Of a stretch of DNA of 64,000 nt, positions 14,663-56,313 are shown piece after piece (the first letter of the stretch is position 1; each line of letters starts with the position of its first letter). The notes under the pieces are model-generated. The model ran no database searches and was not told where the DNA came from. It saw only the letters and a program-made list of their open reading frames with translations. The DNA comes from Trypanosoma brucei (lineage: Eukaryota): positions 2,464,001 through 2,528,000 of the forward strand of contig CH464491.1 of NCBI GenBank assembly GCA_000002445.1, written 5' to 3'. Position numbers and translations under genes: made by a program.

Positions 14663-14705
14663 TTTTTTTTTTGCTTCTTCTTTGTTTTGCTACTTTATGC
14701 AATAG
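14663..14705 (+). promoter_or_regulatory. polypyrimidine tract plus AG, a candidate trans-splice acceptor for the 14882 gene
   Basis: A T10 run and the pyrimidine-rich ttgcttcttctttgttttgctactttatgc are followed by the first AG at 14704-14705. Confidence 0.45.
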
Positions 14706-14881
14706 TAGTAATAAGGAAGGGGGTGCTAAAGTTGAAAAGTTTCTTAATCGTGATTCAACAACCAAGCGGAAGCAGAAACACCGCTCAGAGTTGCGAACAA
14801 ACGTGTGCATTCCTAGTGACGAAAGAAAACAAAAGGTTTACATTGGAGAGGCAGCATTGCATATACTTAGAGCAAGAACTC

Positions 14882-17800: not shown

Positions 17801-20590
17801 GTTGCGTTGACCATACTGCAGGGTGGCATGTGGTCAGAAGTGGACCCTTCGCATGGGATGGTTGGTGAAGAACCATTTGGTGGGTCGGGTGAAATTCCGA
17901 AGGAAGAAGCTGACAAACTCCTTGATACAAGTAATGCGGATGAAGAGGAACTGGTTAGCAAAATTCTTAACGCTCCCACCTCTGGTGACATGCACACACT
18001 GTCTGGTGGGCAACTGACTGAAATGGATAGCGCCGAGGGGATGGCAGCGGCCTTTCTCGGGCGCATCGCAGCCGAAGAGCATTTGGATGCGAGTAATTTT
18101 GAGCGCGGAGGAGTTTCGCCCCGTCGGTTGCCCTCTGACAGTTCGGGGGTGCCACAAACGACTTCGCACGCTGAGCAAGTCGGCGACGAGGCTGCTGTTT
18201 CTTTAGCTAGAAAAGGCAAACGTGTGAAGAATGCTACTTCCTCTGCTGATGGCGAACATACACCCAGATCGCCTACCAGGGCGCGAAGAGGAAGTGGAGA
18301 GAGAGAAGGTGTATCCCGTTCTAGCGCTGTAGGGTCACAAAGACTCAGTCCTGGTGCTAAAGGGGGAAAGGGTCGAAAGGAAGGGGTTGAAGGCAGCGCA
18401 GCTCAAGGTGGTGAAAGTTCTATTTCAACCAATGAGACCTCTGAAGCCAGGACGGGCGTTGGTTCCGGGAGAAGAGCTGATGGCAAGGTGGGAGCTGATG
18501 CCGGAAGAAGAGCTGATGGCAAGGCAAGGGCTGATGCCGGAAGAGGAGCTGATGGCAAGGCAAGGGCTGATGCCGGAAGAGGAGCTGATGGCAAGGCAAG
18601 AGCTGATGCCGGAGGAAGAGCTGATGCCAAGGCGGGTGCTGGTGCCGGAGGAAGAGCTGATGCCAAGGCGGGTGCTGGTGCCAGGGCGAGGACAAGTTCT
18701 GATGCTCGCGCAAGCGCTGATACCGGGGAAACCTCTGATACTGAGGCAAGCATTGGTGCCGGTACCTCTTCAAGAGAGGTTGAACACGGTGGAGTGAGGA
18801 AGAGCAAACTTCGGAGCTTGTCGAAGACGTCAGTCTACGGGAGTGCGAAAATGAAGAGGTACAGCCTAAGGACTCCACCCACCAGCGGCCGTTTCCAAGC
18901 AAGTTCAGGCACAGTGACAGATGGTGAACAACACGGTGATACCACTGCAACCGAAAGTTGTAGAGGAAGCGACAGCACTTCCCACACCCCACGCGGCCAA
19001 CCGTCCCATAGGGGGGTCCTCAGCGCCACGAGAAGCTCCTTTATTGCATCAGTCGATGATAAGTCATCGTGGAGGTCGTCAGTAACGCCTCGTGCCGATA
19101 GTAAGAGCGTTTCAGCATCAGCGCTGAAACATCTATTGGACCAGGTTAGGGTGAGTGAAAAGAAGGACGCAGAGGCACCAACGGGCTTCATTATGGAAAA
19201 GGGGGTTACAGAATATAGTTCACTGTTGCGCAAAGGTGTGCAGGGCGTACAACGCCACCTCTTTCCGGATCGTCAAAAAGTATGCACCAAGTCAAACACC
19301 CACGGCCGTGTGGCTGTGTACGTTCCCGACGACATGGTTGCAGGCACGCTAGTATCGACCGCTGCCAGGGACAATTACTATGGGAAGATGTCGAGACTGT
19401 CCGGCGCATTAACCTCCAATGGTCAAGCCGAAAACATTGTAGAATCACTTCGTGATGATCTTCACGACGTGGCGAAGACGTGCTTCGTCCGCAACAGGAG
19501 GGGGAACCAGAGAGCAGTATTCGGACAGCAAGGAGGTACTGGAGTCTCTGGAGGTAGCAAACGTGCCTCCAGTTATGCGGATAAGGCAGGTATCACATCC
19601 CTCCCCTTACTTTGTGCTCCTGATGTTGTGGAAGAGGTAAGAGACCTCAAAGTTGCGGGGGAAGAGGCACGGGACCTCTTCATTCGAGACCCCACTCGCT
19701 ACGACTGTGTCATCGACGACATCGTTCAACGTGCCATTCAGAGGGTGAACGGGGACGATACCAACTTCACGGCTCTAACAGGAGGCAGAAACGAATTCAG
19801 CATCAAAGGAACTGGGTTAGGGGGGGCACGTGAGACATTTGTATCCTCCAACTCCACCACTGGCGGTTCCCTCTCGGGTCACGGTGTCGGTGCAGTGCGA
19901 GGTTTCAGAGATAACAGAGGGAGGGATGTTGCGCACTCAAACGGCTTGGGTGCTTCTCCCCGTGGGGGCCCGAAACGTGGCGGCGGGTTGGAAGCTCAGT
20001 TGGCAGGAAGTTTCCAGCGGCTCCTCGACGAGCAAAACCGAGCGAAAAGGATTATCGCGTACGTGCTTATGGAAATGAGGCGCATGTGGAGGTTGAGGAG
20101 GCTGGAGGGTGACATCGCCCTCCGCGCGGCTGTGGATCGCTTTGTGTTCCGCTCACTTTCCTTCACCTGGCGCATCGAGCGCCGCCGAGTCCTCAACCTC
20201 AACAAACTAATCAATCTGCTGGACCGTCGCACAGGTCGCGTGAAGGGCTGGGTGCCGTTCTATACCAAAGACAATGTTTTAGTTGACCATTACCTTTGGG
20301 AACCCGTGCCACCGGAGCTCTCACACCAGATGAAGGTTGTCCATCATGCCATGTGTTTAGCACGGCGGCAGGAACTGCTTCCTCTGCGAACGGTGCGACA
20401 TCTTTCTACGTCGGATCAAAGCTCGCACCATCTGATGTTCGGTTACTCAAGGAGGTTGCTAGACCCCTTTAGAAACACAGCAGTGCAACTGAGGAATGAG
20501 AGGCGTGCACGTCATGCTGCATACTTCCAAAGGTCTTTGAGGCGCTTTTCTCCACAAACTGAATATCTGGTGGGGACGCCAAAGAACTAA
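14882..20590 (+). CDS. large hypothetical protein (about 1902 aa from the first ATG) with an internal 12-aa tandem repeat
   Basis: Uninterrupted 5.9-kb ORF. The track start at 14687 is TTG inside the pyrimidine tract. The first in-frame ATG is 14882, and 15026 (MISSDAREV) is an alternative. The sequence is low-complexity, Ser/Glu/Ala-rich, with a basic C-terminal region (RRMWRLRRLEGDIALRAAVDRF). I recognise no catalytic domain. Confidence 0.75.
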   Translation: MLEFRPQHTPDSAAHKINQVACATPDSVPTSVSWRKEEETSGEVTRATMISSDAREVSHIARMASERGRVDISQARNSSPRGTATAVNAVEVELQRRLDVVKAAVEKADKVVDVARGRCAEVISREERRRAMVKLEISKLILFVGRNYNILDELELTLGSVLEVSELPVYHSDKYSEVPFSAREIPPYLSLEDLERANREMMARLMKERTKRANDPPHASLLGKRVNSNLDEVMWLIDSLEEPPCSEEQFGETVGTGEEEECEKSPVAVSQRRSQAITSTSAARETRTSGVRGASSSGNATLCSSRVEMDSSIVNFSLSSESFPIATGETRDLKLLKFMYDAAKATVEEAAAAEAFGAFSGAQLGTTFRSTSNRLQPARDSFCTQQLSGALSGTIGLNSPSKIDSGCKELSFTSSRPPSGMFEDRESFSLEQHISDRALPTAAAPWRGSHNPSTVVIDHLDPEVFTVLGELYKAYDYRQFFRDIQNKHLMRGKTDDEYEAEIENLLTQHMDDKRKRAANSVKDELIIKKWGGVASEASRAPTPRQEVEFVLPARREEEEETEEAEKKSWLQSVVESMSPLSSAPTPVEEVPSPSFLSQIPVDALVFARDMNNGVVFFIRGRNEEASNDEKTLEGKRKGKKGKAKKDGDQEDRNAAGGPPVYDSYTLYVTNQSDTNLTVVVDIEKTKARKLRMSAHVNYAIPQECIVIAPPPGSLKSLLTFCPKKRQQIDFGEILSFREGTARGEVGGTVGEEEKLQLKASSGVSARTKVSGTTKDSTVKEAGEPVAATEVSSERETAGTRAEVSDAAPTTQPSVTATTKEEVSHKEADAGEVVKILDEEADSYVAVGGGRRTKKRAGCAAILSKYPSTRGAEWEANAPESTTAESAGFTEEGEASIPPGPPRGEREPKGEEASSRSRARAREASGAANRASFQQAVGRTRETVEKVWPTGTAPVDHWGVPLSNEEDEAFEKNCVALTILQGGMWSEVDPSHGMVGEEPFGGSGEIPKEEADKLLDTSNADEEELVSKILNAPTSGDMHTLSGGQLTEMDSAEGMAAAFLGRIAAEEHLDASNFERGGVSPRRLPSDSSGVPQTTSHAEQVGDEAAVSLARKGKRVKNATSSADGEHTPRSPTRARRGSGEREGVSRSSAVGSQRLSPGAKGGKGRKEGVEGSAAQGGESSISTNETSEARTGVGSGRRADGKVGADAGRRADGKARADAGRGADGKARADAGRGADGKARADAGGRADAKAGAGAGGRADAKAGAGARARTSSDARASADTGETSDTEASIGAGTSSREVEHGGVRKSKLRSLSKTSVYGSAKMKRYSLRTPPTSGRFQASSGTVTDGEQHGDTTATESCRGSDSTSHTPRGQPSHRGVLSATRSSFIASVDDKSSWRSSVTPRADSKSVSASALKHLLDQVRVSEKKDAEAPTGFIMEKGVTEYSSLLRKGVQGVQRHLFPDRQKVCTKSNTHGRVAVYVPDDMVAGTLVSTAARDNYYGKMSRLSGALTSNGQAENIVESLRDDLHDVAKTCFVRNRRGNQRAVFGQQGGTGVSGGSKRASSYADKAGITSLPLLCAPDVVEEVRDLKVAGEEARDLFIRDPTRYDCVIDDIVQRAIQRVNGDDTNFTALTGGRNEFSIKGTGLGGARETFVSSNSTTGGSLSGHGVGAVRGFRDNRGRDVAHSNGLGASPRGGPKRGGGLEAQLAGSFQRLLDEQNRAKRIIAYVLMEMRRMWRLRRLEGDIALRAAVDRFVFRSLSFTWRIERRRVLNLNKLINLLDRRTGRVKGWVPFYTKDNVLVDHYLWEPVPPELSHQMKVVHHAMCLARRQELLPLRTVRHLSTSDQSSHHLMFGYSRRLLDPFRNTAVQLRNERRARHAAYFQRSLRRFSPQTEYLVGTPKN
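18467..18682 (+). repeat. coding tandem repeat, 6 x 36 bp (GRRADGKARADA / GGRADAKAGAGA units)
   Basis: Units read at 18467, 18503, 18539, 18575, 18611 and 18647. Units 2-4 are near-identical. Units 5 and 6 are identical to each other and form a second subtype. Confidence 0.95.
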
Positions 20591-21165: not shown

Positions 21166-22590
21166 ATGCTGCCTCGCACAGCATGTTTCATGCTTCTGTT
21201 AGCCCTGGGCAGCGAAAAATTCCGTTTAGTGAGTGGTAGTGCTGACGATCATGAAGAACCGAATGGACTGCCTGAATATCACGATGAAGAACTGTTGGAT
21301 GATGTTGGTGAAGGACTGGACCCGGGGGACGACCCCTCACTGTCACCCGATGGCCTTCCACCGGATGGTTTGGACGATGATGACGATCTTCCACCGCCAT
21401 CGGACACAAACACGAGTACAGTTTTTCCCCCAACCTCATTGGGACGGGAGCTCGTTCCGGACGTATCGTACACGCAGGCGGAGAAGTGCGGATTTGAACA
21501 GGTGGGCACGTGCGCAGAAAACTTCTGTAAGTGTCTCTCAGGGAATTTAAGCAGTAAGGGAGTTGAACCCCTAAATGGTATGACGGGTGGCGCGTGTGGC
21601 AGTGGTCATGTATCAAACTGCTACCTGCTGCACCACTGCGCAAGGGAGAGGACGATGTGCATTTGGGCCGCATCGAGGAGTTATGAAGATGCTGCCAAAG
21701 ATGCGATGTGGGACATGTCACGGATGCCGGAGAAGTGGAGGACAAACAGTGGTACAAACAGCAGTTTTTGTCGCGGGCTGCTCAGTATTAGCAGAAATCT
21801 CACCAAGGCTTCCGCGGATGTTAACTTCTACGACACGCCCTTTTACACGGATTGTGCCGAGTATATGTCTTTCCTCTTCAAGAGAAGTGGTGGATACATG
21901 TGTCTCGCTGGCTCTGTGCCCATGTATGTCTGCGGCCCGCTTCTCTTTCCAACGCCCGCACCTCGGCAGATTGGTTATGCTCCCGTAACAAACGGATCGC
22001 GGCGGTTGCTGGTTACTGTAGCGGCCTATTTTGTTGGGAACTTCGCTGTGCTTTTCAATGACCGGACACGAGGTGAAAACTTGCAAATCGGTAGTGGTTT
22101 CAACAAAGAGTTTGGCAACGAGTTGCACAAGTGTTTCCGTGAGTATGTGGGAATTGATGGTGAGTTTACCATGGTTCATGGTGGCCCTAATCTTATTGTG
22201 AAGTATGTTATCGGCCTCGGTGAAGCAGATACATGGGTCGGTGATTTAATTAAGGCAAATGCACTTAATCTTATGGTTCGACCCCCAGGATGGATGGCAA
22301 CAGCTCAGGACATCCTTAGGACTATCGACAGTAACGCTGAGCTTGTGGCTCCTATTGTGAAGTACACAGTCAACTTTGACCCAGGCAAAGGCCCCGTCTT
22401 CACGGAGCTGTGTGATGTCGGTTGTGCAGCGGCCCTTTCTGTTTCTGGCGCGCTTAGCGCCGCCGTTTATTTATTAGCGGGAATTTTTTGCTGTCAGCGA
22501 AATAAACGGACGCTCGCCAGCGTTGATTCCAGCAGCGACGTGGATAATGAAACAATGGAAACTGCTAATGGAGCTCTATCAAAACCGTAG
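21166..22590 (+). CDS. predicted type I membrane (surface/endomembrane) glycoprotein, 474 aa
   Basis: ATG ORF. Signal-peptide-like N-terminus MLPRTACFMLLLALGSEKFRLVSGSA. An acidic Pro/Asp-rich stretch follows. The ectodomain is Cys-rich with several NxS/T sites. A single C-terminal TM segment (AAALSVSGALSAAVYLLAGIFCC) is followed by a short tail. Confidence 0.7.
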   Translation: MLPRTACFMLLLALGSEKFRLVSGSADDHEEPNGLPEYHDEELLDDVGEGLDPGDDPSLSPDGLPPDGLDDDDDLPPPSDTNTSTVFPPTSLGRELVPDVSYTQAEKCGFEQVGTCAENFCKCLSGNLSSKGVEPLNGMTGGACGSGHVSNCYLLHHCARERTMCIWAASRSYEDAAKDAMWDMSRMPEKWRTNSGTNSSFCRGLLSISRNLTKASADVNFYDTPFYTDCAEYMSFLFKRSGGYMCLAGSVPMYVCGPLLFPTPAPRQIGYAPVTNGSRRLLVTVAAYFVGNFAVLFNDRTRGENLQIGSGFNKEFGNELHKCFREYVGIDGEFTMVHGGPNLIVKYVIGLGEADTWVGDLIKANALNLMVRPPGWMATAQDILRTIDSNAELVAPIVKYTVNFDPGKGPVFTELCDVGCAAALSVSGALSAAVYLLAGIFCCQRNKRTLASVDSSSDVDNETMETANGALSKP

Positions 22591-22779
22591 TGGCGGCTTG
22601 CTAATTTTCCTTCAGCAAACTTCCACTTTTTCCCCTTCTACGCGGTGCTTACGGCCTGGGTAGAAAATTAACAAATCTGTGCAATCGTTAATTTATGCAT
22701 TAACGCATCATTTATGGAATAGTTACTACGTGGGGAAAACGGTGAATATGCTTTTTGGGTTGTTACTATTAGCTTTTTT

Positions 22780-22790
22780 GGGGGGGGGGG
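22780..22790. repeat. G11 homopolymer in spacer
   Basis: Direct count. Confidence 0.95.
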
Positions 22791-24039
22791 TGATCGCTTT
22801 AACGTAGGTAGAGTCGAGGCGAATGAATGGGTTGGTTTGGAAGAGGAGGAGAAGGAGAAGGAGAAAAGAAAAGAAAAAAAGAAATGCAAAGGGAAGTAGA
22901 AAAGGGAACCCCTTTGAGTTTGTTACTGAAGGGAAAATACATAAGAAAAAAAAAGAACAAGGAATGAAACGGTGCGATCGAGGAGGTAGAGAAGGAGTGA
23001 AGAGGAAAAGGAAAGAGGCTCTGAATGGATTTGTGCGGCTTTCGCGTAATTTCACGCGTGGTGCATAGAATAGAGTAGGATAGCGTTGCCGGTTGATCAC
23101 GTTATTTTTGTTTTTGGTCACAGGAAGTAACATACGCATGCGTGTATATGTGTAGGTGAGACGGTACAAGGTTAAAGTGGCGTTAGAAAGGTAACTCAAC
23201 GCCAAGTTTTATACATAATAATATAATCATGATGAGTGACGGAAAAAAAAAAGACGAGACGAAAACATGTTACACACCATTGCAATTGAGGAGGAGAGTT
23301 ACGTGTGGGAGGCGACATATAATGATGTGCAAAGCGCAGGCGAACATCCGTTTTTTCTTTTGTTCCAACGTCCCTTGACCCTTCCTTTCTTTTTTGAACT
23401 TCTCTCCCTACTACCATTACTATTATTTAAGTTTGTTCGCTAAGTCACGCTCTCACACGATTACCTGCCTCCCCCTGCCGCCGCAACAGCCTTTGGGTGG
23501 CAAGGCACATATATTTATTTTTAGAATTATTGTTGTAACGATTGTTATCACTATTTATTTTTTCTCCTAGCACTTTTTTAGCTTACTTTTTTTTCGTGTG
23601 TGTGTGTGTTTCTGAAGGTTTTCCTTGCTTTTTTCTTTTATTATCCTTCTTTTGTGCCCTTCTTTGGTTCATTTGTTTTTGTGTGTCTAAGTAACCCTTC
23701 ACAGGGGTTGGACAAAACGCTGCCAAACCCAGAGCAGAACTAAGAGAAATGAAATGTAAGTCAGAACGTTAATTATTAGGAAACCAATAAGCAACGCGTC
23801 GGTTACGGACGTACAATCATGTAGATATTTTTATGGCAAACTTCCTGTGAAACTTTGTGCGCTGATGTGTCATTTCCTTTATGCTTTCTTTTTTCCTATA
23901 GCATTGCCATGTTGCTCACTTCCATTCATCCAACCCCATTCGTCTTTTTTTTTAAAAAAAAGTGGTTTTTGTGAAAGCGCTGGTGTGCCTCCCCTTTGCT
24001 CGTATGTTTGTCTTTTACTTCTTTCGCCATCGAAAGGTT

Positions 24040-24071
24040 AAATAAATAAATAAATATATATATATATATAT
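24040..24071. repeat. compound microsatellite (AAAT)4(AT)n
   Basis: Direct reading. It has the same architecture as 733-784. Confidence 0.95.
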
Positions 24072-24451
24072 AACACATCAGATTGTTAATACTACTTGTG
24101 CACGTGCAATTACTTGGCAGAGCGCAAGCCGACGATGATAAATAAATCAACTACCTTTCATTTAGTCGGTTTCTAACGGCTGCGGTTACACTGCTAACTC
24201 TTGTGTATTGCAGTTTCCTTTGTTTTTGGTGCCGTGAACCTTTCTCTACTGCTTTCTTTTTCCCCCCTTCATTCCCCATGTTATCATGTCTTTATTGTGT
24301 ATTTGTTGCATACATTTGTGGTTTCTCTCAAACACCCACAAACCCTCACCTTGTTCCACCTTTTACTCCAGCTGCATACCCGTGCGCTCCCGCACTTCCA
24401 TCGGCACGTGCATCTCATCGATTATCCACAGGTGATGCGTTTGATGCACTA

Positions 24452-24867
24452 ACAGACCTTAGCGCAATCGAGGTATTGGTGTAAAGTCGGTCAATTGTAG
24501 GCGAGTATGCATCAGTGCAAGGGCTGACAAATATTTCCCTGCAGCTGCCATGTTCGGCTGCCCTTTTGATCATCCAAACGGGTCAGTTAAACCATAGAGC
24601 GTGAGACATGCGAATAAACGTAAAGCTTTGGAGGTATATCTCCGTTACACGCTGCCCATGTGATAGGATGGCGCCTGAATGGATAAGGAAAGCGAGCTGA
24701 TGGCAGGAAGAAATGTGAATCCCATTATTTGTTGTGTGGAAATTATATGTGGATGTGAGAGTGAGAGTGAGGTTGGTAAGTTGATAACTGTACGTGTGGC
24801 GGTGATACGACACCCCACTGAATAAGATGCTTCATCAGTATCTCCTTCCTCTTCATGCCAATTCAAA
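24452..24867. repeat. inverted-repeat arm A (416 bp), reverse complement of 52818-53233
   Basis: A line-by-line reverse-complement comparison gives 415/416 identity. The single mismatch is at 24556 (partner 53129). The identical 76-aa spurious ORFs at 24583-24813(-) and 52872-53102(+) in the ORF track confirm it. Homology breaks sharply at both ends. Confidence 0.97.
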
Positions 24868-24871
24868 CCAG
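24841..24871 (+). promoter_or_regulatory. polypyrimidine tract plus AG at the right end of IR arm A, a candidate trans-splice acceptor for the 24931 gene
   Basis: tctccttcctcttc (24841-24854) is followed by AG at 24870-24871, about 60 nt before the ATG at 24931. Confidence 0.4.
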
Positions 24872-24930
24872 CTGCATATATACGCCCGTCTGCGGAGTAG
24901 GAAACGCAAGAAAGAGAGACAAGAGACAAG

Positions 24931-26175
24931 ATGGGATGTCAACAAAGTGGAGTGCGAATGTCTCCTCAGGACCTTAGTGATCGCACTCCCAGTGGTCAAC
25001 ACGGGTTTACAGGGGATGCCAGCAACACGGCACTTCCCACTGTTCCAACAGACTCATGGTATGGTAAAAACTTTAGTGAAACATCACGTATGGCATTTAC
25101 CGAGTTTCACTTAAAGCAGCGGGGAAACATCGTTTTCGCCGGGACCCCCGTTCCTGTTGGCGCCTCGGAATTGGGTGAGTTCCCTGGCAACTCCCCACCG
25201 CTGCTCACAAGGGCAGTTATTGGCAAGGACAATGTGTACGGCATGGCGTACCTCTATAGCACTCCACTTTCCATTGAGCATCAGTGGAGACTGCGTGTAT
25301 GCCACTACCAAATAGCGTGTTCACCCTCTGGACAAACGCTAGGGGAAGTGCCGGGGGCGCTTTCTACACTTCCTGAGACCCCAACGACAGATGAGCAGAA
25401 AATCAGACTGTGGAACTTCGCTAAACAAGTCTACGACCGGCCGCTTTGCGACACTTTTGTTGGGATCAAAGTGTATGTTGACGGAGAGCTTGTGCCCGAC
25501 CGTTATCCGAGAGCCAAAAGTCTCCCAAACTGCACAGCTACACTCGAATCTAGTGAAGTGTTTAATAACTGGACCTGTGTTCCTTTTGTACTTGTTGGTT
25601 ACGTGAACAGTCCGATGATAAGTACTGTTACGATGTACAGGCACCTGTCCCTTAGCTTCGTTGAGTACTTGTTGGGCAAAACCATCACGGGTGGAGAAAC
25701 CGACAGAACAAAAGATGAAGAGGTGGCGGAATGTAAAGACGAGAATACCGTTGGGGATGGACGTAGTGTGGACGCGCCCGATAAGCCGAAGGAGGAGGTC
25801 ACCCAGTCTTTCAATGTTTCTGTAGAGGTTGTGTACGGTTGTGAGGCGGAGATGAATTTCTGCACAGCCCACATTGCGAAGGGGAACATAGAACTTGTTA
25901 TGGGAGAGCACTCAGACGCAGCTTTACGAAAATATAAGGCTTCACTTGAGGAGTTTCTTAGGAAAAGCGGCAACGAGCGTCATCAGGTAGTTGCGGTGGA
26001 TCCTTTGACACTCAAAGGGCGGAACTCGGCATTATGGACTTGTTTGTTTTGCGGGTCTCCCCTGCAGTTCACGTGTACGATTTGCGGCGCCGAGCTGTGT
26101 GGAATGTCTTCGTGTGTGTGGAAGCCCTTCACGGGGTATCCGCTTGGCTGCTCGTCTCATAAGGCGCAGGCGTGA
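24931..26175 (+). CDS. hypothetical protein with a dual-acylation-type N-terminus and a C-terminal Cys cluster, 414 aa
   Basis: ATG ORF. MGCQQSG has Gly2, Cys3 and Ser6. The C-terminus has a zinc-finger-like spacing, CLFCGSPLQFTCTICGAELCGMSSCVWKP...GCSSH. Confidence 0.7.
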   Translation: MGCQQSGVRMSPQDLSDRTPSGQHGFTGDASNTALPTVPTDSWYGKNFSETSRMAFTEFHLKQRGNIVFAGTPVPVGASELGEFPGNSPPLLTRAVIGKDNVYGMAYLYSTPLSIEHQWRLRVCHYQIACSPSGQTLGEVPGALSTLPETPTTDEQKIRLWNFAKQVYDRPLCDTFVGIKVYVDGELVPDRYPRAKSLPNCTATLESSEVFNNWTCVPFVLVGYVNSPMISTVTMYRHLSLSFVEYLLGKTITGGETDRTKDEEVAECKDENTVGDGRSVDAPDKPKEEVTQSFNVSVEVVYGCEAEMNFCTAHIAKGNIELVMGEHSDAALRKYKASLEEFLRKSGNERHQVVAVDPLTLKGRNSALWTCLFCGSPLQFTCTICGAELCGMSSCVWKPFTGYPLGCSSHKAQA

Positions 26176-27009
26176 GGGTGACTCCCCAAGTTTTTGAGAT
26201 TCAGTTTCTGTATACGTTTCGTTTCGGTGTTATCATTCACCATTACTACTGTTTTCTCAACATCAACCCACTGAGCACGGATGTGCATGTGGGGTATTGT
26301 ATGTCTCTGGGCACTGGCAACGACGCAGGGGGAACAAATGTCCGAACTGGCCGGCTGCATATTTGGCAGATTCGGCTCTACTAAAAATGACGCGAAATGC
26401 AAAAAGGGATATACGTTATCTCCGTACTAATCTTTGCGCCTCCTTACGTGGTGTCAGTTATGAAGCTAATCTGCCTACCGCCCCCCCCCTCTTCCATTGA
26501 AACCCCGGTGTATACTTTTCGTTTTCTTTGTACTTTTCCTTTACTTCTTTTGTTTGTATATTTTATAATAAGGAAGTGGCTAACCTGTTGCTTATGGAAG
26601 TCAGTCGCGTTTTGTGCATGCAACATTGTGCTTAAACTTCAAAAACATTAAAGATAAAATAACGCATTGCACATCCTTCTTTTGCTTTTAATATGGTGTT
26701 GCATCTTGCCGACTGTCCGCCAACCTCGTTTTGCGCCACCAGCCTGTTTTCATTCTTCTTTTCTTTTATGTGTGTGTTATACTTCTCATGCGTTGTTAAC
26801 ACCACTGTAGTTTTCCACCTGTAGGAAACGCCAGGTGCGCCACGGCATCCAAAGGGTTACTCAGCAGAAACCTTACAAGGAAGCCAATTGTCTAACACGC
26901 TGCTGTGGAGGTTTCTATCTGCACCATTTTCCATTCATACATATACGTATACCGATTTCTTTACCCGAATATTTATTTTAAAAAAAACCGTACTCGGGCG
27001 GTTCTTGAA

Positions 27010-29586
27010 ATGCTATCCAAGTTATTCCGGTATGACACGAAACTTCAGGGGAAGCAGGAACTCAGTACCGCTGATCACAGGTCGTTACTTGAGCTTAGTA
27101 TGACAGACAACATTACATCCGTAGAGATTCCGCAGTACAGGGTGCGGGGGACGTTTGTTGAGTATGTGATTGAGTGCACAAAACGAAACATGACGTGGCA
27201 GGTGTTTCGGCGTTACCAGCAATTTAAGGCACTTGACCAGAGTCTGAAACAACTATGCTCACGCGGATCCTCAAGGCACTGTGACTACGGGGTCATTCCT
27301 GTCCTCTGCGGTAGCCACTGGACGGAAGTAACTAACCAGTCAATCGACCTCGTAGAAAAACGGCGGAGGCACTTGGAAATTTACCTCCGCCAGTTGCTCG
27401 TCCCGGGGAATGTATTTTATGTTGCTAAAACCGTGATTTACGATTTTCTTCACGATGGCGCGGTTCCTGCGCAGCACCAAAGGAGGGCCATACGACCGCT
27501 AATTGGCTTTGCAACGCCAGACTCGTTGGCAGACCTCCACTTGGAAAACAGGAACGGCGAAGGGAGTGCGAGCCGGTTAGGGGCGGCCTCAACTCTCAAC
27601 GATAAATCGATTTCTATGCTTGGGCCATCTGCTGTTGGTGAAAGTGATCGAGTGGATGATGGTGTCGGGGACGAAGAAGAGGAGCCCTGCAAATCACCTC
27701 CAGGAGAGACCGTAGAGAGCGGTGAGGAATGTGAAGATTTACCATCAGCTGACAACAGTGAAGCTGAGGACGTGCGTGTGCCGCCACCAGGCTCCTTGTG
27801 CAGGCAATGTAACGCTGAGTTTTCTTCTGTGCTGTATCCGCATCGTTGTTTCTTCTGTAGGCAACAGTTTTGTCGCGACTGTTTGCACCCAGTCGAACTT
27901 GAAGAAGGAGAGGTCGCTAGATCATGTGTTCAATGTTATGAAAACTTTGCTCGAAAGACCTGTAAACCCCAATATCCCCCAACTCCCATGGCTTCAACAC
28001 CAATACTTCAGTGCGCACCTGCTGGTGGTGCGTTGGACCCGTTGAACTTACTCGGTAGTACGTCCCACGTGCGAACAGATGTAACACTTTCTGACTTTAA
28101 GTTAGTTACAACTGTGGGACGTGGCACGTTTGGCAAAGTGATGAAAGTTATCTTTCGTGAAGATGGCAAGGTTTATGCTATGAAAGTGCTCAACAAGTGT
28201 GTTATTCACAAGCGGCGAATGATCGAGTACATCAGGGAGGAGAAGAATATCATGTCCTCTTTACCCTCGCATCCGTACATTGTAACATGTCACTTCGCAT
28301 TTCAGACTGACTACCATCTTTTCTTCGTACTGGACTACCTCCCTGGTGGAGACATGCACTCGCGTGTTTACCCTAAACTCAAACTAACTGAATCGGATGT
28401 CCGTTTGTATATTGCTGAACTTGTACTCGCACTCCAACATCTGCACCGTCACGACATTGCCCATCGTGACGTCAAGCTCGAAAACATTGTCTTGGGAGAA
28501 GACGGACATCTTAAACTGACAGATTTTGGGCTGGCACGCATGAATTTCTCACGGCAACGCCGTCGCAGTTTTGTGGGGAGTCCGGAGTACCTTCCGCCAG
28601 AAACGATTCAGGGGAAGTACCAAACGAAGGCTGTGGATTGGTGGAGTGCGGGGGTCATGCTGTACGAAATGCTGAGTGGGAAGACGCCGTTTTACTCGGC
28701 GTACAATTGTGAAATCTACAACAATGTGTTGAAGGCGGAGTTGGACCTCACAGCCCCGTGTTTCACGCCAGAGGCCGCCTCACTCATTGAACAACTGCTT
28801 CAAAGCCATCCAAAAGCAAGGTTGCAAGACGCAGGGGCAATAAAGGCTCATCCTTACTTTGCATCAATCGATTGGGCTGCTCTCGAAGGTAAAAAAATAT
28901 CTGCCCCCATACAGCTTGATCTTATGGGAAATGATATGAAATACATCAAATGGAAGTTCACGGCGGAGTGGGCTGTTATATACAAACCTCCTGGAGTGAC
29001 ACGTGCTACAATTGACCTTTTGATTAATCGCTTTAGTAACTTTGCTCATGTGAGCGAGGGGACGCCGCCCACGCCGCATCTGCCGATAGGGCAGCAGCAG
29101 GAAGAGGTATCTGACGGAGTGACAAACCCACCGGATATAACCGGCGTTTGGAATGTTGTCAAGGTAGAGATGCAAACGGAGGATGGAAAGATCACGCATC
29201 CTTGGGGAAGTGCAGTGTGTGGAGTGCTAGCGTACTTCCCAGAGGGTCAGTTCAGCATGCAGCTTACATCATATATGCGTCCACATTTGCGGCAACAGTT
29301 CGTGGATCGTGCCGTGAGAGAGGATCTGGTAGAAATGTGCAACTCGTACGCGGGCAGTTTCGGAAAGTATCAGATCAAGCCAGGGAGCAATATCATTACT
29401 CACAGGCTTCACGGCTGCCTCTGTCCGAATCTTACAGGAAGTACACAAAAGTATTTTTTTGAGGTTCGTGAGAGGAAAGAAAATGGGGCTAAAGTGTTGA
29501 AACTTTTTACCGCGTGTAACGCGCTCCCAGGTGAAGACATCTCCGCACAAACCGTCCTCACATGGGAACGGACGGGTTCCTGCTAA
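27010..29586 (+). CDS. AGC-family Ser/Thr protein kinase with N-terminal PX and FYVE-like domains and a C-terminal lipocalin-like domain (about 858 aa)
   Basis: The track start at 26905 is GTG; the first ATG is 27010. PX domain: YRVRGTFVEYVIEC...WQVFRRYQQFKALDQSL...RRRHLEIYLRQLL. FYVE-like Cys pattern: CRQCNAEF...HRCFFCRQQFCRDC...CVQCYENF. Kinase motifs are intact: GRGTFGKV, YAMKVL, HRDVKLENIVL, DFGLAR, GSPEYLPPE. C-terminal domain: GVWNVVKVEMQTEDGKITHPWGSAVCGVLAYFPEGQFSMQL...YAGSFGKYQIKPGSNIITHRLHGCLCPNLTGSTQKYFFEV. Confidence 0.85.
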   Translation: MLSKLFRYDTKLQGKQELSTADHRSLLELSMTDNITSVEIPQYRVRGTFVEYVIECTKRNMTWQVFRRYQQFKALDQSLKQLCSRGSSRHCDYGVIPVLCGSHWTEVTNQSIDLVEKRRRHLEIYLRQLLVPGNVFYVAKTVIYDFLHDGAVPAQHQRRAIRPLIGFATPDSLADLHLENRNGEGSASRLGAASTLNDKSISMLGPSAVGESDRVDDGVGDEEEEPCKSPPGETVESGEECEDLPSADNSEAEDVRVPPPGSLCRQCNAEFSSVLYPHRCFFCRQQFCRDCLHPVELEEGEVARSCVQCYENFARKTCKPQYPPTPMASTPILQCAPAGGALDPLNLLGSTSHVRTDVTLSDFKLVTTVGRGTFGKVMKVIFREDGKVYAMKVLNKCVIHKRRMIEYIREEKNIMSSLPSHPYIVTCHFAFQTDYHLFFVLDYLPGGDMHSRVYPKLKLTESDVRLYIAELVLALQHLHRHDIAHRDVKLENIVLGEDGHLKLTDFGLARMNFSRQRRRSFVGSPEYLPPETIQGKYQTKAVDWWSAGVMLYEMLSGKTPFYSAYNCEIYNNVLKAELDLTAPCFTPEAASLIEQLLQSHPKARLQDAGAIKAHPYFASIDWAALEGKKISAPIQLDLMGNDMKYIKWKFTAEWAVIYKPPGVTRATIDLLINRFSNFAHVSEGTPPTPHLPIGQQQEEVSDGVTNPPDITGVWNVVKVEMQTEDGKITHPWGSAVCGVLAYFPEGQFSMQLTSYMRPHLRQQFVDRAVREDLVEMCNSYAGSFGKYQIKPGSNIITHRLHGCLCPNLTGSTQKYFFEVRERKENGAKVLKLFTACNALPGEDISAQTVLTWERTGSC

Positions 29587-35021: not shown

Positions 35022-36096
35022 AATTTGAGGAAAGAAGGTGGGGAATAAAGAATGGAGGAAGGAAAGGGGGAGATAGGGACGATGTACGCAAGGTGGAGGT
35101 CGCTGCAGTAGTCACTGCGCTCGCTGTTACGAAGACAGCACGGGCAAGTGATTAACGGTCCAACTAACCGCACCCTTGAAGAGGGAAAACGATGGTAAGG
35201 GTTCCAACTTGTTTTGCTGCACTGCATGTACATATATACAAACTTAGAATTGTGCATGTATCTTGCATTCTTCGTATCTTTTTTGTGTACGTGCGCCTTC
35301 ACGTATCCCTCTCTTTTCCGTCTTCTTCTATCGCTCTGCATGTCCTCTCCTTTATTTTCGACGTGCCACGGGCGCTGTCAACCATTGGAAATGAATTCCA
35401 GCATATTATACGCAAACGCAAACATCCATTTCAGTTTGAATGGGCGGATTTTGGAGGGACGTGATCAGTCTTTTTATGTGTCTCGCAGTTCCGTACCCTT
35501 TCTCTCACACATTGCCGTGTTTTTTTTTGTGATTGCCTAACGTCTTTCAAAAAGGTGGAATTACGACACACGCAAAGGTGTGTCAAGGGTGGATATGAAG
35601 TTGAAGCAAGGGAAAGGAATGAGAATAAATGTAAAAGAGGTAACTGAAGCAGGTGGAGGTGTCTGTAGAAAGGGGGCGCACAACAAGTTGAACATGTGGA
35701 GTATCGTGAAGAATCCCAAAAGAAAACAAGAAAAAAAGAGGAAAACATTTCGCCCTTCTCTTCTTTTTATTTCCCCTCTCCTCCCTTGTTTCTCCTTCAT
35801 TTCAATAGGCTATCATAAAGAATCACTCCAGTTTATTTTTCCAGTGTTTCTGCTTCTTTTTCTGGCCCTTCTCTTCTCTTCTCTTCTCTTTTTTGCTTTT
35901 TTTCTTTTTTGTGTGAGCGATTGTTGTTATTATTGTTTTCATTACTTTCACTATCATCATCATTATTGACTCGTCCTTATTGGCGGTAAAGGACACCGTG
36001 AGAGAAGAGGGTGAATATTGTTAAAGTTGACGTAATTATGAGCCCTTCAGGAAGGATATTTCCCACCTTGTAGAATTTCATGGGAGTGTACTGTGC

Positions 36097-36114
36097 ATAT
36101 ATATATATATATAT
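36097..36114. repeat. (AT)9 microsatellite
   Basis: Direct reading. Confidence 0.9.
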
Positions 36115-37189: not shown

Positions 37190-37213
37190 AAATATAAATA
37201 AATATATATATAT
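37190..37213. repeat. AAAT/AT compound microsatellite
   Basis: aaatataaataaatatatatatat read directly. Confidence 0.9.
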
Positions 37214-51132: not shown

Positions 51133-52605
51133 ATGTTAAGGCGTACAATTTTCCTGGGAAGGGTAACCCGCTCTTGGACCAAAGGATCTATAGTTAAGGC
51201 ATCGGCCCATTTCCCAGATTCTGTGAGGGCTGATCCCGCAGAAAGACGTAATGAAGACTCGTCTCCGAAGGAAAGCCGCACATGGTCTCTTCATGACGGC
51301 CCGTGCAGCGAACCTCTTCACGTTCCCAAACATATTCAATGGGCAACACAGAAGGTGAGAGTTTGGGGGCAACTAATGCGAGTGGATAAGGCTGCTGCAA
51401 TAAACCTCCTGCTTCAACCTTGTTACTGGGGAGCCAGTCTAGCAGTAACTCGGGCCATCGTCTGGGAGGGGGCGGATCCTGTCGTTTTGTTCGCTCCTTT
51501 CATTCCCGTACATTTGATCGTCCTGTTCGGCGCTGGTGCCTTTTTGGCTCGGGGTGCGGGTTGTATTATTAACGACATGTGTGACAGAAAGTTCGACCGA
51601 ATGGTAGAACGCACCAAAACACGGCCGCTTGCTAGCGGTGTTGTCAGCATGAAGGAGGCATCAGGCCTTCTCATAACAGTAGCTGGTTTTGCGCTTGTTA
51701 TTGCACTAAACCTGTCGCCCATGGCACTTGCTTCGGCGGTAGCGTTAGCTCCCATCGCGGCAGTTTATCCGCTCATGAAGCGTATAACCTACATGCCTCA
51801 GCTCGTTCTGGGACTTTGCTTCAACGGCGGCATTTTTGTTGGGTATGCTGCCGTGCTAAACCGCATTGATTTGGCCGTTACGCTTCCTATCTACTGCTCA
51901 GCCGTCGTGTGGACAGTTTTGTATGATACCATCTATGCGTACCAAGACAGGGCGGACGACCTGAAATGCGGTGTGAAGAGCTCGGCTATTCTTATTGGTG
52001 ACAGGAAGCATATTCTCACTTTCATGATACTCCCCATCGGCATGGGTATTCTTATTTCGGGATTGATGGTCTCACAGTCGCTTCCGTTTTACATCGGTGT
52101 CCTCTGTTGCGTTTGGTACCTTCAGGGTGTCGTTGATAACGTCAACATATACGATGCGTGGTCATGTGGTATGGGATTCCGCAGGAACGTACGATTTGCC
52201 ATCCTGGTTACTTTTTCTCTCTGCCTTGGAAACGTGTTGTGGGCACTCGCATCTGAGCACCAACCGGAAAAGGACGCCGCGAGCAACGCCATATCGGAAA
52301 AGTCGGCCTTGATGAAATTCCTTCTTTTGAATAAGGAAGCGGAACCCATGTCGTACAGCGTGCAAGATATTCGTTGGGTAGACCGTTTTGCGCATCCGGC
52401 ATTCGTGGCAGCGCAGAAGGCTCAACACGAGGGAGAGGAAAAAACGGTGGTGGTGCCGGCGTGGATGCGGCGTGAGTACCTGGGTGAGAATGTAGGGACT
52501 ATCATGCGCTTTTTTGGCGTTGACGAGGAAGCAATCCAAACTTGGCAAAAGTGGTGGTACGCGCAACTTGACCACTACAACATGTTCTCCAGCATCGCCG
52601 TTTAG
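51133..52605 (+). CDS. COQ2: 4-hydroxybenzoate polyprenyltransferase (COQ2, UbiA family) with a C-terminal extension (about 490 aa)
   Basis: The track start at 51001 is GTG; the first ATG is 51133 (MLRRTIFLGRVTRSW, presequence-like). UbiA Asp-rich motifs NDMCDRKFDRMVERTKTRPLASG and YAYQDRADD. There are multiple hydrophobic helices, followed by about 120 aa of soluble Trp-rich tail. Confidence 0.88.
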   Translation: MLRRTIFLGRVTRSWTKGSIVKASAHFPDSVRADPAERRNEDSSPKESRTWSLHDGPCSEPLHVPKHIQWATQKVRVWGQLMRVDKAAAINLLLQPCYWGASLAVTRAIVWEGADPVVLFAPFIPVHLIVLFGAGAFLARGAGCIINDMCDRKFDRMVERTKTRPLASGVVSMKEASGLLITVAGFALVIALNLSPMALASAVALAPIAAVYPLMKRITYMPQLVLGLCFNGGIFVGYAAVLNRIDLAVTLPIYCSAVVWTVLYDTIYAYQDRADDLKCGVKSSAILIGDRKHILTFMILPIGMGILISGLMVSQSLPFYIGVLCCVWYLQGVVDNVNIYDAWSCGMGFRRNVRFAILVTFSLCLGNVLWALASEHQPEKDAASNAISEKSALMKFLLLNKEAEPMSYSVQDIRWVDRFAHPAFVAAQKAQHEGEEKTVVVPAWMRREYLGENVGTIMRFFGVDEEAIQTWQKWWYAQLDHYNMFSSIAV

Positions 52606-52817
52606 TGTCAAGACATGCTGCTAGCAGAGGGGAACATGGAAAAGCAACTGCGACTTGTGGGATTTGTCTTCATTGGACGGTCTGGGATTTGTTACTGAAA
52701 GAAGGTAAGAGATGGTTCAACAGCAGTCAAATAAACAAAATATATATATGTACATCGTTACCCCCCGCTCCCTCTCTACCCCCATTTTTCAGCACGGTCA
52801 GAAATACATGTGTCTGT

Positions 52818-53233
52818 TTTGAATTGGCATGAAGAGGAAGGAGATACTGATGAAGCATCTTATTCAGTGGGGTGTCGTATCACCGCCACACGTACAGTTA
52901 TCAACTTACCAACCTCACTCTCACTCTCACATCCACATATAATTTCCACACAACAAATAATGGGATTCACATTTCTTCCTGCCATCAGCTCGCTTTCCTT
53001 ATCCATTCAGGCGCCATCCTATCACATGGGCAGCGTGTAACGGAGATATACCTCCAAAGCTTTACGTTTATTCGCATGTCTCACGCTCTATGGTTTAACT
53101 GACCCGTTTGGATGATCAAAAGGGCAGCAGAACATGGCAGCTGCAGGGAAATATTTGTCAGCCCTTGCACTGATGCATACTCGCCTACAATTGACCGACT
53201 TTACACCAATACCTCGATTGCGCTAAGGTCTGT
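52818..53233. repeat. inverted-repeat arm B (416 bp), reverse complement of 24452-24867
   Basis: See arm A. It lies in the spacer between the COQ2 stop (52605) and the next ATG (53432). Confidence 0.97.
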
Positions 53234-53431
53234 ATGTGCTTGCAAGAATACTTTTTTTAGTAAACTACTCCGCTTCTCTTTTCATCTTTTTTTTTTGTGT
53301 CTCATTTTACCAGGTTACGGAGTAGGAGACTGATTGGGCCCACCATTGCGGAGATTATACATATCCTCGCTTCGCTGTGAGTCTGAAAGGGGACTCGGGT
53401 AACTTGTGAACACACAAGCCTCCTTTTTGAC

Positions 53432-56293: not shown

Positions 56294-56313
56294 CCCCCCC
56301 CCCAAAAAAAAAA
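56294..56313. repeat. C10A10 homopolymer pair
   Basis: Direct count: C at 56294-56303 and A at 56304-56313. Confidence 0.95.

What the first reader, a model, noticed from the sequence alone, without database searches (positions are those of the whole stretch)
24452..24930. The two IR arms are co-transcribed, predicting a 416-nt perfect dsRNA; arm A also supplies the splice-acceptor signal of the downstream gene
Both arms lie on the sense path of one + strand primary transcript, so that RNA contains two fully complementary 416-nt segments. Depending on the processing sites, arm A would be in the long 3' UTR or spacer after the 21166-22590 membrane-protein gene. Arm B would be in the COQ2 3' UTR or spacer. 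Either an intramolecular stem or an mRNA-to-mRNA duplex would give long dsRNA. In RNAi-competent trypanosomes, inverted repeats and convergent transcription units are reported sources of endogenous siRNAs (my recollection of T. brucei small-RNA surveys). In addition, the right end of arm A reads tctccttcctcttc...AG (24841-24871), a plausible trans-splice signal for the gene at 24931. The mirrored copy in arm B points the same signal antisense, toward the COQ2 3' end.
Basis: inference. Interest (0 to 1): 0.6.

Follow-up and report, generated by a model that had tools for sequence, protein, structure and literature searches.

The report
Transcribed 416-bp inverted duplication, T. brucei
Two near-identical 416-bp copies of non-coding DNA lie in opposite orientation 28 kb apart within one transcription unit of Trypanosoma brucei chromosome 11, so their RNAs can pair into double-stranded RNA and may feed RNA interference, but small-RNA production and any function remain untested.

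Summary
The inverted repeat is real. The core is 24452-24867 against 53233-52818, 415/416 complementary (one G·A mismatch at 24556/53129), whereas chance gives 14-20 nt. The window is T. brucei brucei TREU927 chr11, an RNAi-competent organism.

Both arms lie in spacers of one + strand gene array, with eleven genes and no tRNA or minus-strand gene between them. The repeat has the same boundaries in T. b. gambiense and T. b. equiperdum. Variants shared between arms across lineages indicate gene conversion. The arms diverge about as fast as their flanks, so no selection is detectable.

RNA-seq assemblies from a gambiense-like strain show RNA crossing the COQ2-3'UTR/arm B junction and the arm A/24931-gene junction, so complementary RNAs coexist.

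A 28-kb intramolecular stem is implausible, because splicing takes 1-3 min and eleven processing units intervene. Pairing in trans is the realistic route.

The proposed splice acceptor (PPT 24841-54, AG 24870-71) exists, but all six transcript contigs read through it, and a larger PPT block lies upstream of the arm.

The locus is absent from the seven published T. brucei siRNA-producing inverted repeats. siRNA production is untested. My verdict is a plausible, probably weak, unlisted candidate of a known class.

The parts
24452..24867 (+). Arm A core (416 nt), in the 2.34-kb spacer between the 21166-22590 gene and the 24931-26175 gene
   Evidence: 415/416 complementary to 52818-53233. No ORF over 94 aa, no Rfam family, and self-fold z = -0.11.
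52818..53233 (-). Arm B core (416 nt, reverse complement of arm A), in the 826-nt spacer between COQ2 (51133-52605) and the 53432-55294 gene
   Evidence: Self-fold of the + strand RNA gives z = -0.17. Six COQ2 transcript contigs run from the CDS into this arm and stop at 52847, which is 52818+29, the k-1 branch point.
24446..24881 (+). Extended arm A with ragged edges (436 nt at 98%)
   Evidence: The edge positions are mismatch-rich, and no homology is detectable further out.
52804..53239 (-). Extended arm B with ragged edges
24556..24556 (+). The only arm-to-arm difference inside the core in TREU927 (G here; partner 53129 reads A on the + strand, a G·A mismatch). It can serve as a marker to tell the arms apart in read mapping.
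   Evidence: The other five arms examined carry T at this position in arm A orientation.
24841..24871 (+).
   Evidence: The tract length is within the published range of 9-40 nt (PMC9639853). However, 6/6 RNA contigs read through it.
24214..24371 (+). Alternative, larger polypyrimidine block upstream of arm A (24214-24227, 24252-24277, 24343-24369) with the first AG at 24370-71. If this is used, all of arm A lies in a roughly 560-nt 5' UTR of the 24931 gene.
   Evidence: Transcript contigs of the upstream gene extend to 24066 and break in a (TA)n run.
52761..52801 (+). 30-nt polypyrimidine tract plus AGs (52791-92, 52800-01) immediately before arm B. This is a possible extra acceptor that would place arm B in a separate non-coding RNA.
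   Evidence: sequence only.
53268..53313 (+). Polypyrimidine tract (53268-53296) plus AG 53312-13, the likely acceptor of the 53432 gene, located downstream of arm B
   Evidence: Transcript contigs of that gene start at 53339 and 53356 and do not reach the arm.
51133..52605 (+). COQ2 (4-hydroxybenzoate polyprenyltransferase, UbiA family, EAN79888.1), whose 3' region runs into arm B
24931..26175 (+). Conserved hypothetical gene (EAN79878.1) immediately downstream of arm A. Its transcripts are contiguous with the right end of arm A.
21166..22590 (+). Conserved hypothetical membrane-protein gene (EAN79877.1) upstream of arm A. Its acceptor is the AG at 21015-16, so the mRNA starts at 21017, and its 3' UTR is at least 1.47 kb.
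   Evidence: spliced-leader remnant TATTG on L010.

Best explanation
This is a discrete inverted segmental duplication of non-coding DNA, about 416-436 bp long. It sits in two spacers of the same + strand polycistronic unit on T. brucei chromosome 11. It arose before the brucei, gambiense and equiperdum lineages separated, and it is kept 98.8-99.8% alike by occasional gene conversion between the arms, not by detectable selection.

Both arms are transcribed in the sense direction, so arm A RNA and arm B RNA are complementary. Arm A RNA is contiguous with the 5' region of the 24931 gene and possibly with the long 3' UTR of the 21166 gene. Arm B RNA is contiguous with the COQ2 3' UTR. The arms are separated by eleven independently and rapidly processed genes, so any duplex must form in trans between separate RNA molecules. 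The most plausible place is near the locus in the nucleus, where several polymerases traverse the 28 kb at once, rather than as a 28-kb fold-back.

Such a duplex would be a substrate for the nuclear Dicer DCL2 and/or the cytoplasmic DCL1. That makes the locus a candidate, probably low-output, endogenous siRNA source of the inverted-repeat/trans-NAT type.

Shown here: the repeat, its conservation, inter-arm sequence exchange, sense RNA across two arm junctions, and duplex thermodynamics. Inferred: trans pairing, dicing and low output. I saw no evidence for a regulatory role.
For: The repeat and its significance rest. The same boundaries are seen in DAL972 and T. b. equiperdum. A 28,028-bp T. 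equiperdum OVI contig carries exactly the inter-arm genes, which implies an assembly break at the arms.

Inter-arm exchange is supported by three sites. At 24476 the state is C/C in Tbg and T/T in the others. At 24688 it is G/G, A/A and G/A in the three genomes. At 24790 the variant C is in arm B of Tbg but arm A of Teq.

No constraint is detectable. Core divergence between Tbb and Tbg is 1.0-1.4%, against about 2% in the flanks. There is no ORF, Rfam hit or unusual self-structure.

Transcription is supported by six COQ2 contigs ending at 52847 and six 24931-gene contigs starting at 24838. These are the two reverse-complementary k-1 overlaps of the repeat end, in six RNA-seq libraries that are 99.7-99.9% identical to DAL972. 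A spliced-leader junction on L010 confirms RNA origin.

The duplex cofolds at -843.6 kcal/mol against -117.5 and -97.6 for the self-folds, with 414/416 intermolecular pairs.

For kinetics, splicing half-time is 1-3 min, precursor decay about 8 min, and transcription 0.24 per min (PMC4285177).

For precedent, seven long IRs, all CTUs and many trans-NATs yield AGO1-bound siRNAs in T. brucei (PMC3447711; PMC3683921). The most similar published IR by arm length (IR1, 422 bp, 100%) gave only 403 of 6.8 million annotated reads, which supports an expectation of low output.
Against: No small-RNA data could be mapped, so dicing is unproven. The locus is not in Tschudi's IR table, although they searched each chromosome against itself with BLAST. 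Either a size or spacing cut-off excluded it, or it was not noticed as a small-RNA source.

The RNA-seq libraries also contain intergenic or precursor reads: L015 spans three genes and L009 carries an unspliced acceptor. The arms may therefore be present mainly in short-lived precursors rather than in mature mRNAs. Typical trypanosome mRNAs are present at a few copies per cell, which disfavours bimolecular annealing in the cytoplasm.

The transcript evidence comes from a gambiense-like strain, not TREU927. The interior of the arms and the two outer junctions (24451/24452 and 53233/53234) were not covered by any contig I could retrieve.
Confidence: 0.55

Rival explanations
1. One + strand primary transcript contains both arms and folds back into a 416-bp intramolecular stem. 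The stem is diced, and the siRNAs regulate the flanking genes (21166, 24931, COQ2, 53432).
For: Both arms are in one uninterrupted + strand gene array. The duplex is very stable. The published T. brucei IR loci are thought to act as fold-back sources.
Against: There are 27.9 kb and eleven genes between the arms, and each gene boundary is a co-transcriptional cleavage site. Splicing half-times are about 1-3 min and unspliced precursors decay in about 8 min, so arm A is detached long before arm B is made. All seven published IR loci are compact, spanning at most about 12 kb in total. There is no sign of selection for complementarity: 5 mismatches have accumulated in each of gambiense and equiperdum. 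In Tschudi's data, mRNA levels at two tested CTUs did not change in DCL2 knockouts (Discussion).
Confidence: 0.07
2. The repeat is a neutral relic with no RNA-level consequence. The duplication is real and homogenised by gene conversion, but the complementary RNAs never meet, because they are removed as spacer, degraded or exported separately. No siRNAs above background arise.
For: The arms evolve like their flanks. The locus is absent from the IR list in the only systematic survey. mRNA copy numbers are low and processing is fast. The libraries show precursor reads, so junction coverage need not mean stable RNA.
Against: T. brucei dices even low-level antisense overlap: siRNAs were detected at all convergent transcription units, and 134-147 NAT pairs gave small RNAs. 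Both arm junctions were covered well enough to be assembled in six of six libraries.
Confidence: 0.3
3. The arms are the footprint of, or the substrate for, a 28-kb inversion. Either they are an inverted duplication created at inversion breakpoints, or the segment flips between strains.
For: Inverted repeats flanking a segment are the classical arrangement for inversion. The arms do exchange sequence.
Against: Gene order and orientation across the arm A junction are the same in T. cruzi: 1885-aa, 502-aa orthologue (2e-91), 430-aa orthologue, then the PX kinase, all on the + strand. Orientation is identical in TREU927, DAL972 and T. b. equiperdum. An inverted segment would place eleven genes antisense to the transcription unit.
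Confidence: 0.03
4. The arms are two copies of a short mobile or dispersed repeat (MITE-, RIME- or SIDER-like) that happened to insert in opposite orientation.
For: The segment is a discrete unit with sharp boundaries and no flanking homology. It is non-coding.
Against: There are only two copies in 64 kb and none in the other fetched loci outside the orthologous sites. I saw no target-site duplication, terminal inverted repeats or A-tail when reading the edges. The genome-wide copy number could not be searched with these tools.
Confidence: 0.05

Closest known systems
Long inverted repeats IR1-IR7 of T. brucei that yield AGO1-bound siRNAs (Tschudi, Shi, Franklin, Ullu 2012, BMC Genomics 13:427)
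   Same: Same organism. The arms are near-identical (99-100%) inverted copies of non-coding or low-coding DNA. Arm length matches the smallest listed member (IR1, 422 bp). The authors also noted puzzlingly high arm identity.
   Different: The published loci are compact, 3.6-12 kb in total, and can fold back. This one has 27.9 kb and eleven expressed genes between the arms, so it can only pair in trans. It is not in their table. The only chr11 entry is IR7 at 4.219 Mb with 1,814-bp arms. Small RNAs have not been shown for this locus.
trans-natural antisense transcript (trans-NAT) pairs producing siRNAs in T. brucei (Zheng et al. 2013, RNA 19:863)
   Same: Two transcripts from different positions have extended complementarity and are co-expressed in the same cell. 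The predicted outcome is NAT-siRNAs.
   Different: Most listed pairs involve pseudogenes, repeats or ncRNAs (79%). Here the complementarity lies in UTR or spacer parts of two housekeeping-gene transcripts in the same polycistron. I could not check whether this pair is in their Supplemental Table S2, because the file is not held.
Convergent transcription unit (CTU) siRNA loci of T. brucei
   Same: dsRNA arises from ordinary Pol II transcription without an RdRP, and published production depends on DCL2. A CTU lies only about 2-5 kb downstream of arm B in this window.
   Different: At CTUs the two strands of one DNA segment are transcribed. Here the same strand of two inverted DNA copies is transcribed.
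Gene-converting inverted segmental duplications (for example palindrome arms in sex chromosomes)
   Same: Arm identity is maintained by intrachromosomal gene conversion, and variants are shared between arms across lineages.
   Different: This one is far smaller (0.4 kb), contains no genes, and has a long unique spacer.

Membership tests
T. brucei siRNA-producing long inverted repeats (Tschudi 2012 IR class) | Two essentially identical inverted arms of at least about 400 bp on one chromosome | tested here: met
   The core is 415/416 over 416 bp, or 436 bp at 98%.
T. brucei siRNA-producing long inverted repeats (Tschudi 2012 IR class) | Compact locus able to form a fold-back hairpin (published loci span 3.6-12 kb in total) | tested here: not met
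   There are 27,922-27,950 nt and eleven genes between the arms.
T. brucei siRNA-producing long inverted repeats (Tschudi 2012 IR class) | 22-25-nt AGO1-bound small RNAs of both polarities mapping to the arms, reduced in dcl mutants | not testable with these tools
   No read data are available. The locus is absent from Table 3, and the miscellaneous chr11 loci (DNK9/11/12/13/14, TUD5) are listed without coordinates.
T. brucei siRNA-producing long inverted repeats (Tschudi 2012 IR class) | Host has a functional RNAi pathway (AGO1, DCL1, DCL2) | tested here: met
   Window proteins are identical to T. brucei brucei TREU927 entries EAN79877-EAN79889. RNAi competence of this species is established knowledge (PMC3447711).
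trans-NAT pair | Extended complementarity between two RNAs transcribed from different loci | tested here: met
   The sense RNAs of the two arms cofold with 414/416 intermolecular pairs at -843.6 kcal/mol.
trans-NAT pair | Both RNAs present in the same cells | tested here: inconclusive
   Reads cross the COQ2-3'UTR/arm B and arm A/24931 junctions in each of six RNA-seq assemblies. The libraries also hold precursor reads, strand specificity is unknown, and the strain is gambiense-like.
trans-NAT pair | Small RNAs from the overlap | not testable with these tools
   Supplemental tables of PMC3683921 are not held.
   A 14-nt, 100% pyrimidine tract at 24841-54 with AG at 24870-71. The published range is from PMC9639853.
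   Six of six transcript contigs contain 24838-24871 uninterrupted and carry no spliced-leader remnant. Contigs of neighbouring genes mostly stop at or just after their acceptors. Minor use of this site cannot be excluded.
Inversion-breakpoint inverted duplication | Segment between the arms inverted relative to outgroups | tested here: not met
   T. cruzi has the same order and strand across the arm A junction.
Dispersed mobile element (MITE/RIME/SIDER-like) | Multiple genomic copies with target-site duplications or terminal structures | tested here: inconclusive
   There are only two copies in the window and no flanking duplications. The whole genome could not be searched.

The most novel reading that the evidence does not exclude
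The inverted duplication could be a functional natural RNAi module. In this reading, sense transcripts of the two arms pair in trans near their shared transcription unit and are diced by DCL2/DCL1. The resulting siRNAs then tune the mRNAs carrying the arms: COQ2, the first committed prenylation step of ubiquinone synthesis, and the conserved 24931 gene. That would be the first case of RNAi regulating ordinary housekeeping genes in T. brucei, with gene conversion preserving the complementarity.
Probability: 0.08. Interest if true: 0.65.

Novelty: new member of a known kind. Interest (0 to 1): 0.3.

Why it matters
The known endogenous RNAi targets in T. brucei are retroposons, satellite repeats, a handful of compact inverted repeats, convergent transcription zones and pseudogene NATs. 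No ordinary protein-coding gene is known to be controlled by the pathway.

This locus places 416 nt of near-perfect complementarity into the transcripts of two conserved genes in one polycistron, so it is a clean natural test case. If small RNAs map to it, they would show that widely spaced inverted duplications can feed RNAi in trans. They would also allow a direct test of whether RNAi affects COQ2 expression, by deleting one arm or comparing ago1-/- cells.

If no small RNAs map, that would set a useful limit on how far apart complementary segments in a polycistron can be before the RNAi machinery ignores them.

The repeat is also a practical hazard. It breaks short-read assemblies (the T. 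equiperdum 28-kb contig and the RNA-seq contigs), and it underlies a spurious gene model in gambiense.

Tried and rejected
- **TREU927 look-ups.** Exact look-ups of the TREU927 proteins in the contig index returned nothing. I worked through gambiense, equiperdum and Logan members instead.
- **Concatenated ORF search.** I tried to reach contigs covering the arm interior or the outer junctions. A concatenation of the spurious arm ORFs gave no hits, which wasted one of three searches. Exact look-ups of nine arm ORFs also found nothing.
- **Gene IDs.** Literature searches for Tb927.11 IDs, needed to query published splice and poly(A) maps, failed. The RNA-seq run accessions are not cited in any held paper.
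- **Published siRNA tables.** Tschudi's miscellaneous siRNA loci have no coordinates. Zheng's NAT tables are not held. No later T. brucei siRNA survey was found.
- **Known RNA genes.** Rfam, with both gathering and permissive thresholds, and tRNA scans found nothing. The SgrS hit at E = 0.3 is noise.
- **Structured RNA.** Rejected, because self-fold z-scores are about 0.
- **Older, larger duplication with decayed flanks.** Rejected, because flank alignments are no better than shuffles.
- **Inversion breakpoint.** Rejected on T. cruzi synteny.
- **Which arm is ancestral.** Strand composition was uninformative: purine fractions of 0.543 and 0.459 against 0.476 ± 0.072 for other spacers.
- **Contig start at 24838.** An AG happens to sit at 24837-38, which raised the possibility of a real 5' end. 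I rejected this because there is no polypyrimidine tract upstream, and because the position equals the k-1 overlap exactly, mirrored by the COQ2 contig ends at 52847.

Full report
**Observation.** The window contains exactly one long inverted repeat, 24446-24881 against 52804-53239 (436 nt, 98%), with 27,922 nt between the arms. There is a single mismatch at 24556, where G faces A at 53129 on the + strand. The repeat is therefore 415/416, with perfect runs of 311 and 104 nt, and is not perfect as the title states. Surrogate sequences of the same composition give longest inverted matches of 14-20 nt. Homology stops sharply: alignments of the flanks are no better than shuffles. No third copy exists in the window.

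**Organism and setting.** Six proteins of the window are identical to entries of Trypanosoma brucei brucei TREU927 chromosome 11 (EAN79877-EAN79889, on a 5.26-Mb record). COQ2 is EAN79888.1, with a UbiA domain. All large ORFs from 909 to 55294 are on the + strand, and minus-strand genes begin beyond about 55.5-58 kb.

Arm A lies in the 2.34-kb spacer between the 21166 gene and the 24931 gene. Arm B lies in the 826-nt spacer between COQ2 and the 53432 gene. Eleven genes lie between the arms. There are no tRNA genes, no Rfam families, and no credible minus-strand gene in the one long gap at 35022-38086. The arms themselves have no ORF over 94 aa, no RNA-family match and no unusual self-structure, with z-scores of -0.11 and -0.17.

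**Conservation and evolution.** The same repeat with the same boundaries is present in T. b. gambiense DAL972 and in a T. brucei equiperdum chromosome-scale contig. In T. equiperdum OVI the genes between the arms sit on a 28,028-bp contig, against 27,950 bp from core to core, while the outer genes are on other contigs. That implies the assembly broke at the arms.

Arm-to-arm differences are 1, 5 and 5 of 416 in the three genomes. Same-arm differences between genomes are 2-8. Three sites show variants shared between different arms across lineages:
- 24476: C/C in gambiense, T/T elsewhere.
- 24688: G/G, A/A and G/A in the three genomes.
- 24790: C in arm B of gambiense but in arm A of equiperdum.

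This pattern requires sequence exchange between the arms (gene conversion) or recurrent mutation. The core diverges between subspecies at 1.0-1.4%, against about 2% in the adjacent spacer. Purifying selection is therefore not detectable, and complementarity is allowed to decay to 98.8%.

T. cruzi has the same gene order and strand across the arm A junction, but with a 570-nt spacer and no similarity to the arm. The repeat is therefore not an inversion breakpoint. Strand composition does not reveal which arm is the original.

**Transcription.** Logan assemblies of runs ERR7929156-64 carry these genes on contigs of 1.7-4.7 kb that are 99.7-99.9% identical to DAL972. They come from RNA. Contig L010 begins with TATTG, the last five bases of the spliced leader, in place of genomic GAAAG, exactly after a polypyrimidine tract and AG at 21015-16. 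Contig ends also cluster in UTRs.

All six COQ2 contigs end at 52847, and all six contigs of the 24931 gene begin at 24838. These are the positions 30 nt (k-1 for k = 31) inside the repeat end, and the two terminal 30-mers are reverse complements. The assembly graph therefore branches at the end of the repeat in every library. That can only happen if RNA reads cross both the COQ2-3'UTR/arm B junction and the arm A/24931 junction.

Transcripts of the 21166 gene extend at least to 24066, where contigs break in a (TA)n run. Contigs of the 53432 gene start at 53339 and 53356, downstream of a 29-nt polypyrimidine tract and AG 53312-13, and do not contain arm B.

There are several caveats. The libraries also contain intergenic or precursor reads. 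Strandedness is unknown. The strain is gambiense-like. The arm interior and the two outer junctions could not be retrieved.

**The splice-acceptor claim.** The 14-nt all-pyrimidine tract 24841-54 and AG 24870-71 exist, and their size is typical for T. brucei acceptors: tracts range 9-40 nt, mostly 12-24, with poly(A) sites 100-150 nt upstream (PMC9639853). The same paper stresses that many tracts in UTRs are unused.

In the RNA assemblies, 6/6 contigs read through this AG without a spliced-leader remnant. Contigs of the two neighbouring genes mostly stop at or 2-43 nt after their acceptors, and one of six extends 45 nt upstream. A much larger composite tract at 24214-24369, with its first AG at 24370-71, lies upstream of the arm. 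If that site is used, the whole arm lies in a roughly 560-nt 5' UTR. I consider the proposed acceptor possible but probably not the main one.

**dsRNA potential and mechanism.** The two sense RNAs cofold with 414/416 intermolecular pairs at -843.6 kcal/mol, against -117.5 and -97.6 for the separate folds. A single RNA holding both arms is very unlikely. Eleven trans-splice/poly(A) units separate them, 5' splicing half-times are about 1-3 min, and unspliced precursors decay in about 8 min (PMC4285177). With general Pol II elongation rates (my own knowledge), 28 kb needs many minutes to transcribe.

The modelled transcription rate of 0.24 per min implies that several polymerases are on the 28 kb at once. 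Arm A and arm B RNAs are therefore made simultaneously and close together. Pairing in trans in the nucleus, where DCL2 acts, is the most plausible route. Pairing of mature mRNAs in the cytoplasm, where DCL1 acts, is less likely, because most trypanosome mRNAs are present at only a few copies per cell (my own knowledge of the field; one search gives a median of 9 only for the most stable mRNAs).

**Comparison with what is known.** Tschudi et al. searched the TREU927 genome for inverted repeats and listed seven, 422-10,011 bp long, in loci of 3.6-12 kb. All yielded AGO1-bound small RNAs. The only chr11 entry is IR7 at 4.219 Mb with 1,814-bp arms. The present repeat is not listed. Six miscellaneous chr11 small-RNA loci are given without coordinates. 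The closest listed repeat by arm length (IR1, 422 bp, 100%) gave only 403 reads, which suggests low output for arms of this size.

The convergent switch region just downstream of arm B is probably their CTU46 (chr11 1.654-1.666 Mb, 790 reads, DCL2-dependent). This rests only on approximate position: the equiperdum coordinate is about 1.53-1.56 Mb, and the neighbouring CTUs lie at 1.18 and 2.08 Mb.

Zheng et al. showed that most of 182 NAT pairs, mainly trans, give small RNAs, but their tables were not available. No later survey was found.

**Verdict.** The organism is RNAi-competent and both arms are transcribed in the sense direction, so complementary RNAs coexist. The fold-back version is implausible, the splice-acceptor role is unproven and somewhat disfavoured, and siRNA production is untested. 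The evolutionary data point to a neutral duplication homogenised by gene conversion rather than a selected regulatory device. It is best filed as an unlisted, widely spaced candidate of the known inverted-repeat/trans-NAT class of potential siRNA sources. Its interest is modest, and it is easily testable with existing small-RNA data.

Noticed in passing
window 24868-52817 (whole inter-arm segment): In the T. equiperdum OVI assembly, the genes between the arms (SCU68133-SCU68142) lie on a separate 28,028-bp contig. That is almost exactly the core-to-core distance of 27,950 bp. The outer genes are on other contigs, so the repeat broke that assembly and the orientation of the segment there is unresolved.
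   Followed up: partly
window 52708-53040 (+); L002 9277-9609: The DAL972 annotation carries a 110-aa 'hypothetical protein, unlikely' (CBH17930.1) that overlaps arm B. Its cluster has no other member, so it looks like a spurious gene model caused by the repeat sequence.
   Followed up: partly
window 55294-58009: A convergent strand switch lies here. + strand genes end at 55294 and minus-strand genes (lipoate ligase-like, 58009-58806, and others) follow, and GC skew changes sign at about 56 kb. It lies only 2-5 kb from arm B and is probably Tschudi's CTU46 (790 small-RNA reads, DCL2-dependent). Reads from arm B could have been counted within that interval.
   Followed up: partly
window 22591-24930; L021 9432-10000: The spacer between the 21166 gene and the 24931 gene is 2,340 nt in T. 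brucei but only 570 nt in T. cruzi. RNA contigs show a 3' UTR of at least 1.47 kb for the upstream gene. The spacer contains several polypyrimidine tracts and a (TA)n run at about 24040-24066, where all contigs break.
   Followed up: partly
window 18405-18728: There is a tandem array with 18/36-nt periodicity (6- or 12-codon repeats) inside the 1,967-aa ORF 14687-20590. The orthologue is 1,885 aa in T. cruzi.
   Followed up: no
window 59157-59782: There are 51-nt and 147-nt tandem repeats inside the minus-strand 893-aa ORF 59143-61824, which has no Pfam domain. The gambiense model of this gene is shorter (777 aa), which suggests variation in repeat number.
   Followed up: no
window 35022-38086: A 3-kb stretch within the + strand array has no credible gene. 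It holds only low-complexity overlapping ORFs on both strands with no Pfam hits. It may be a very long UTR, an unannotated non-coding RNA or an internal transcription start region.
   Followed up: partly
L023 3001-4086 and L024 5001-5753 (T. b. equiperdum): The gene models of the 24931 orthologue (361 aa against 414) and the phosphonopyruvate-decarboxylase-like gene (250 aa against 421) are truncated in this assembly. Arm A has a 1-nt deletion at the position equivalent to 24801. These are probably long-read indel errors, so that one arm difference may not be real.
   Followed up: no
L022 (L. donovani LR812648.1): In Leishmania the orthologue of the 24931 gene is followed by a sulfate-transporter/phosphatase gene instead of the PX-domain kinase. 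No orthologue of the 474-aa gene is called upstream. So there is a synteny break relative to Trypanosoma near this locus, though not at the arm position.
   Followed up: no
window 26905-29586: This protein kinase has an unusual architecture: PX domain, weak FYVE, kinase domain and a C-terminal lipocalin-like domain. The architecture is conserved in T. cruzi.
   Followed up: no
L015 1-19: The first 19 nt of this RNA contig (GATTTGGACAAACTTGAGG) do not align to the window or to DAL972 at the expected place just upstream of the Kelch gene. This could be a strain-specific indel or an assembly chimera.
   Followed up: no
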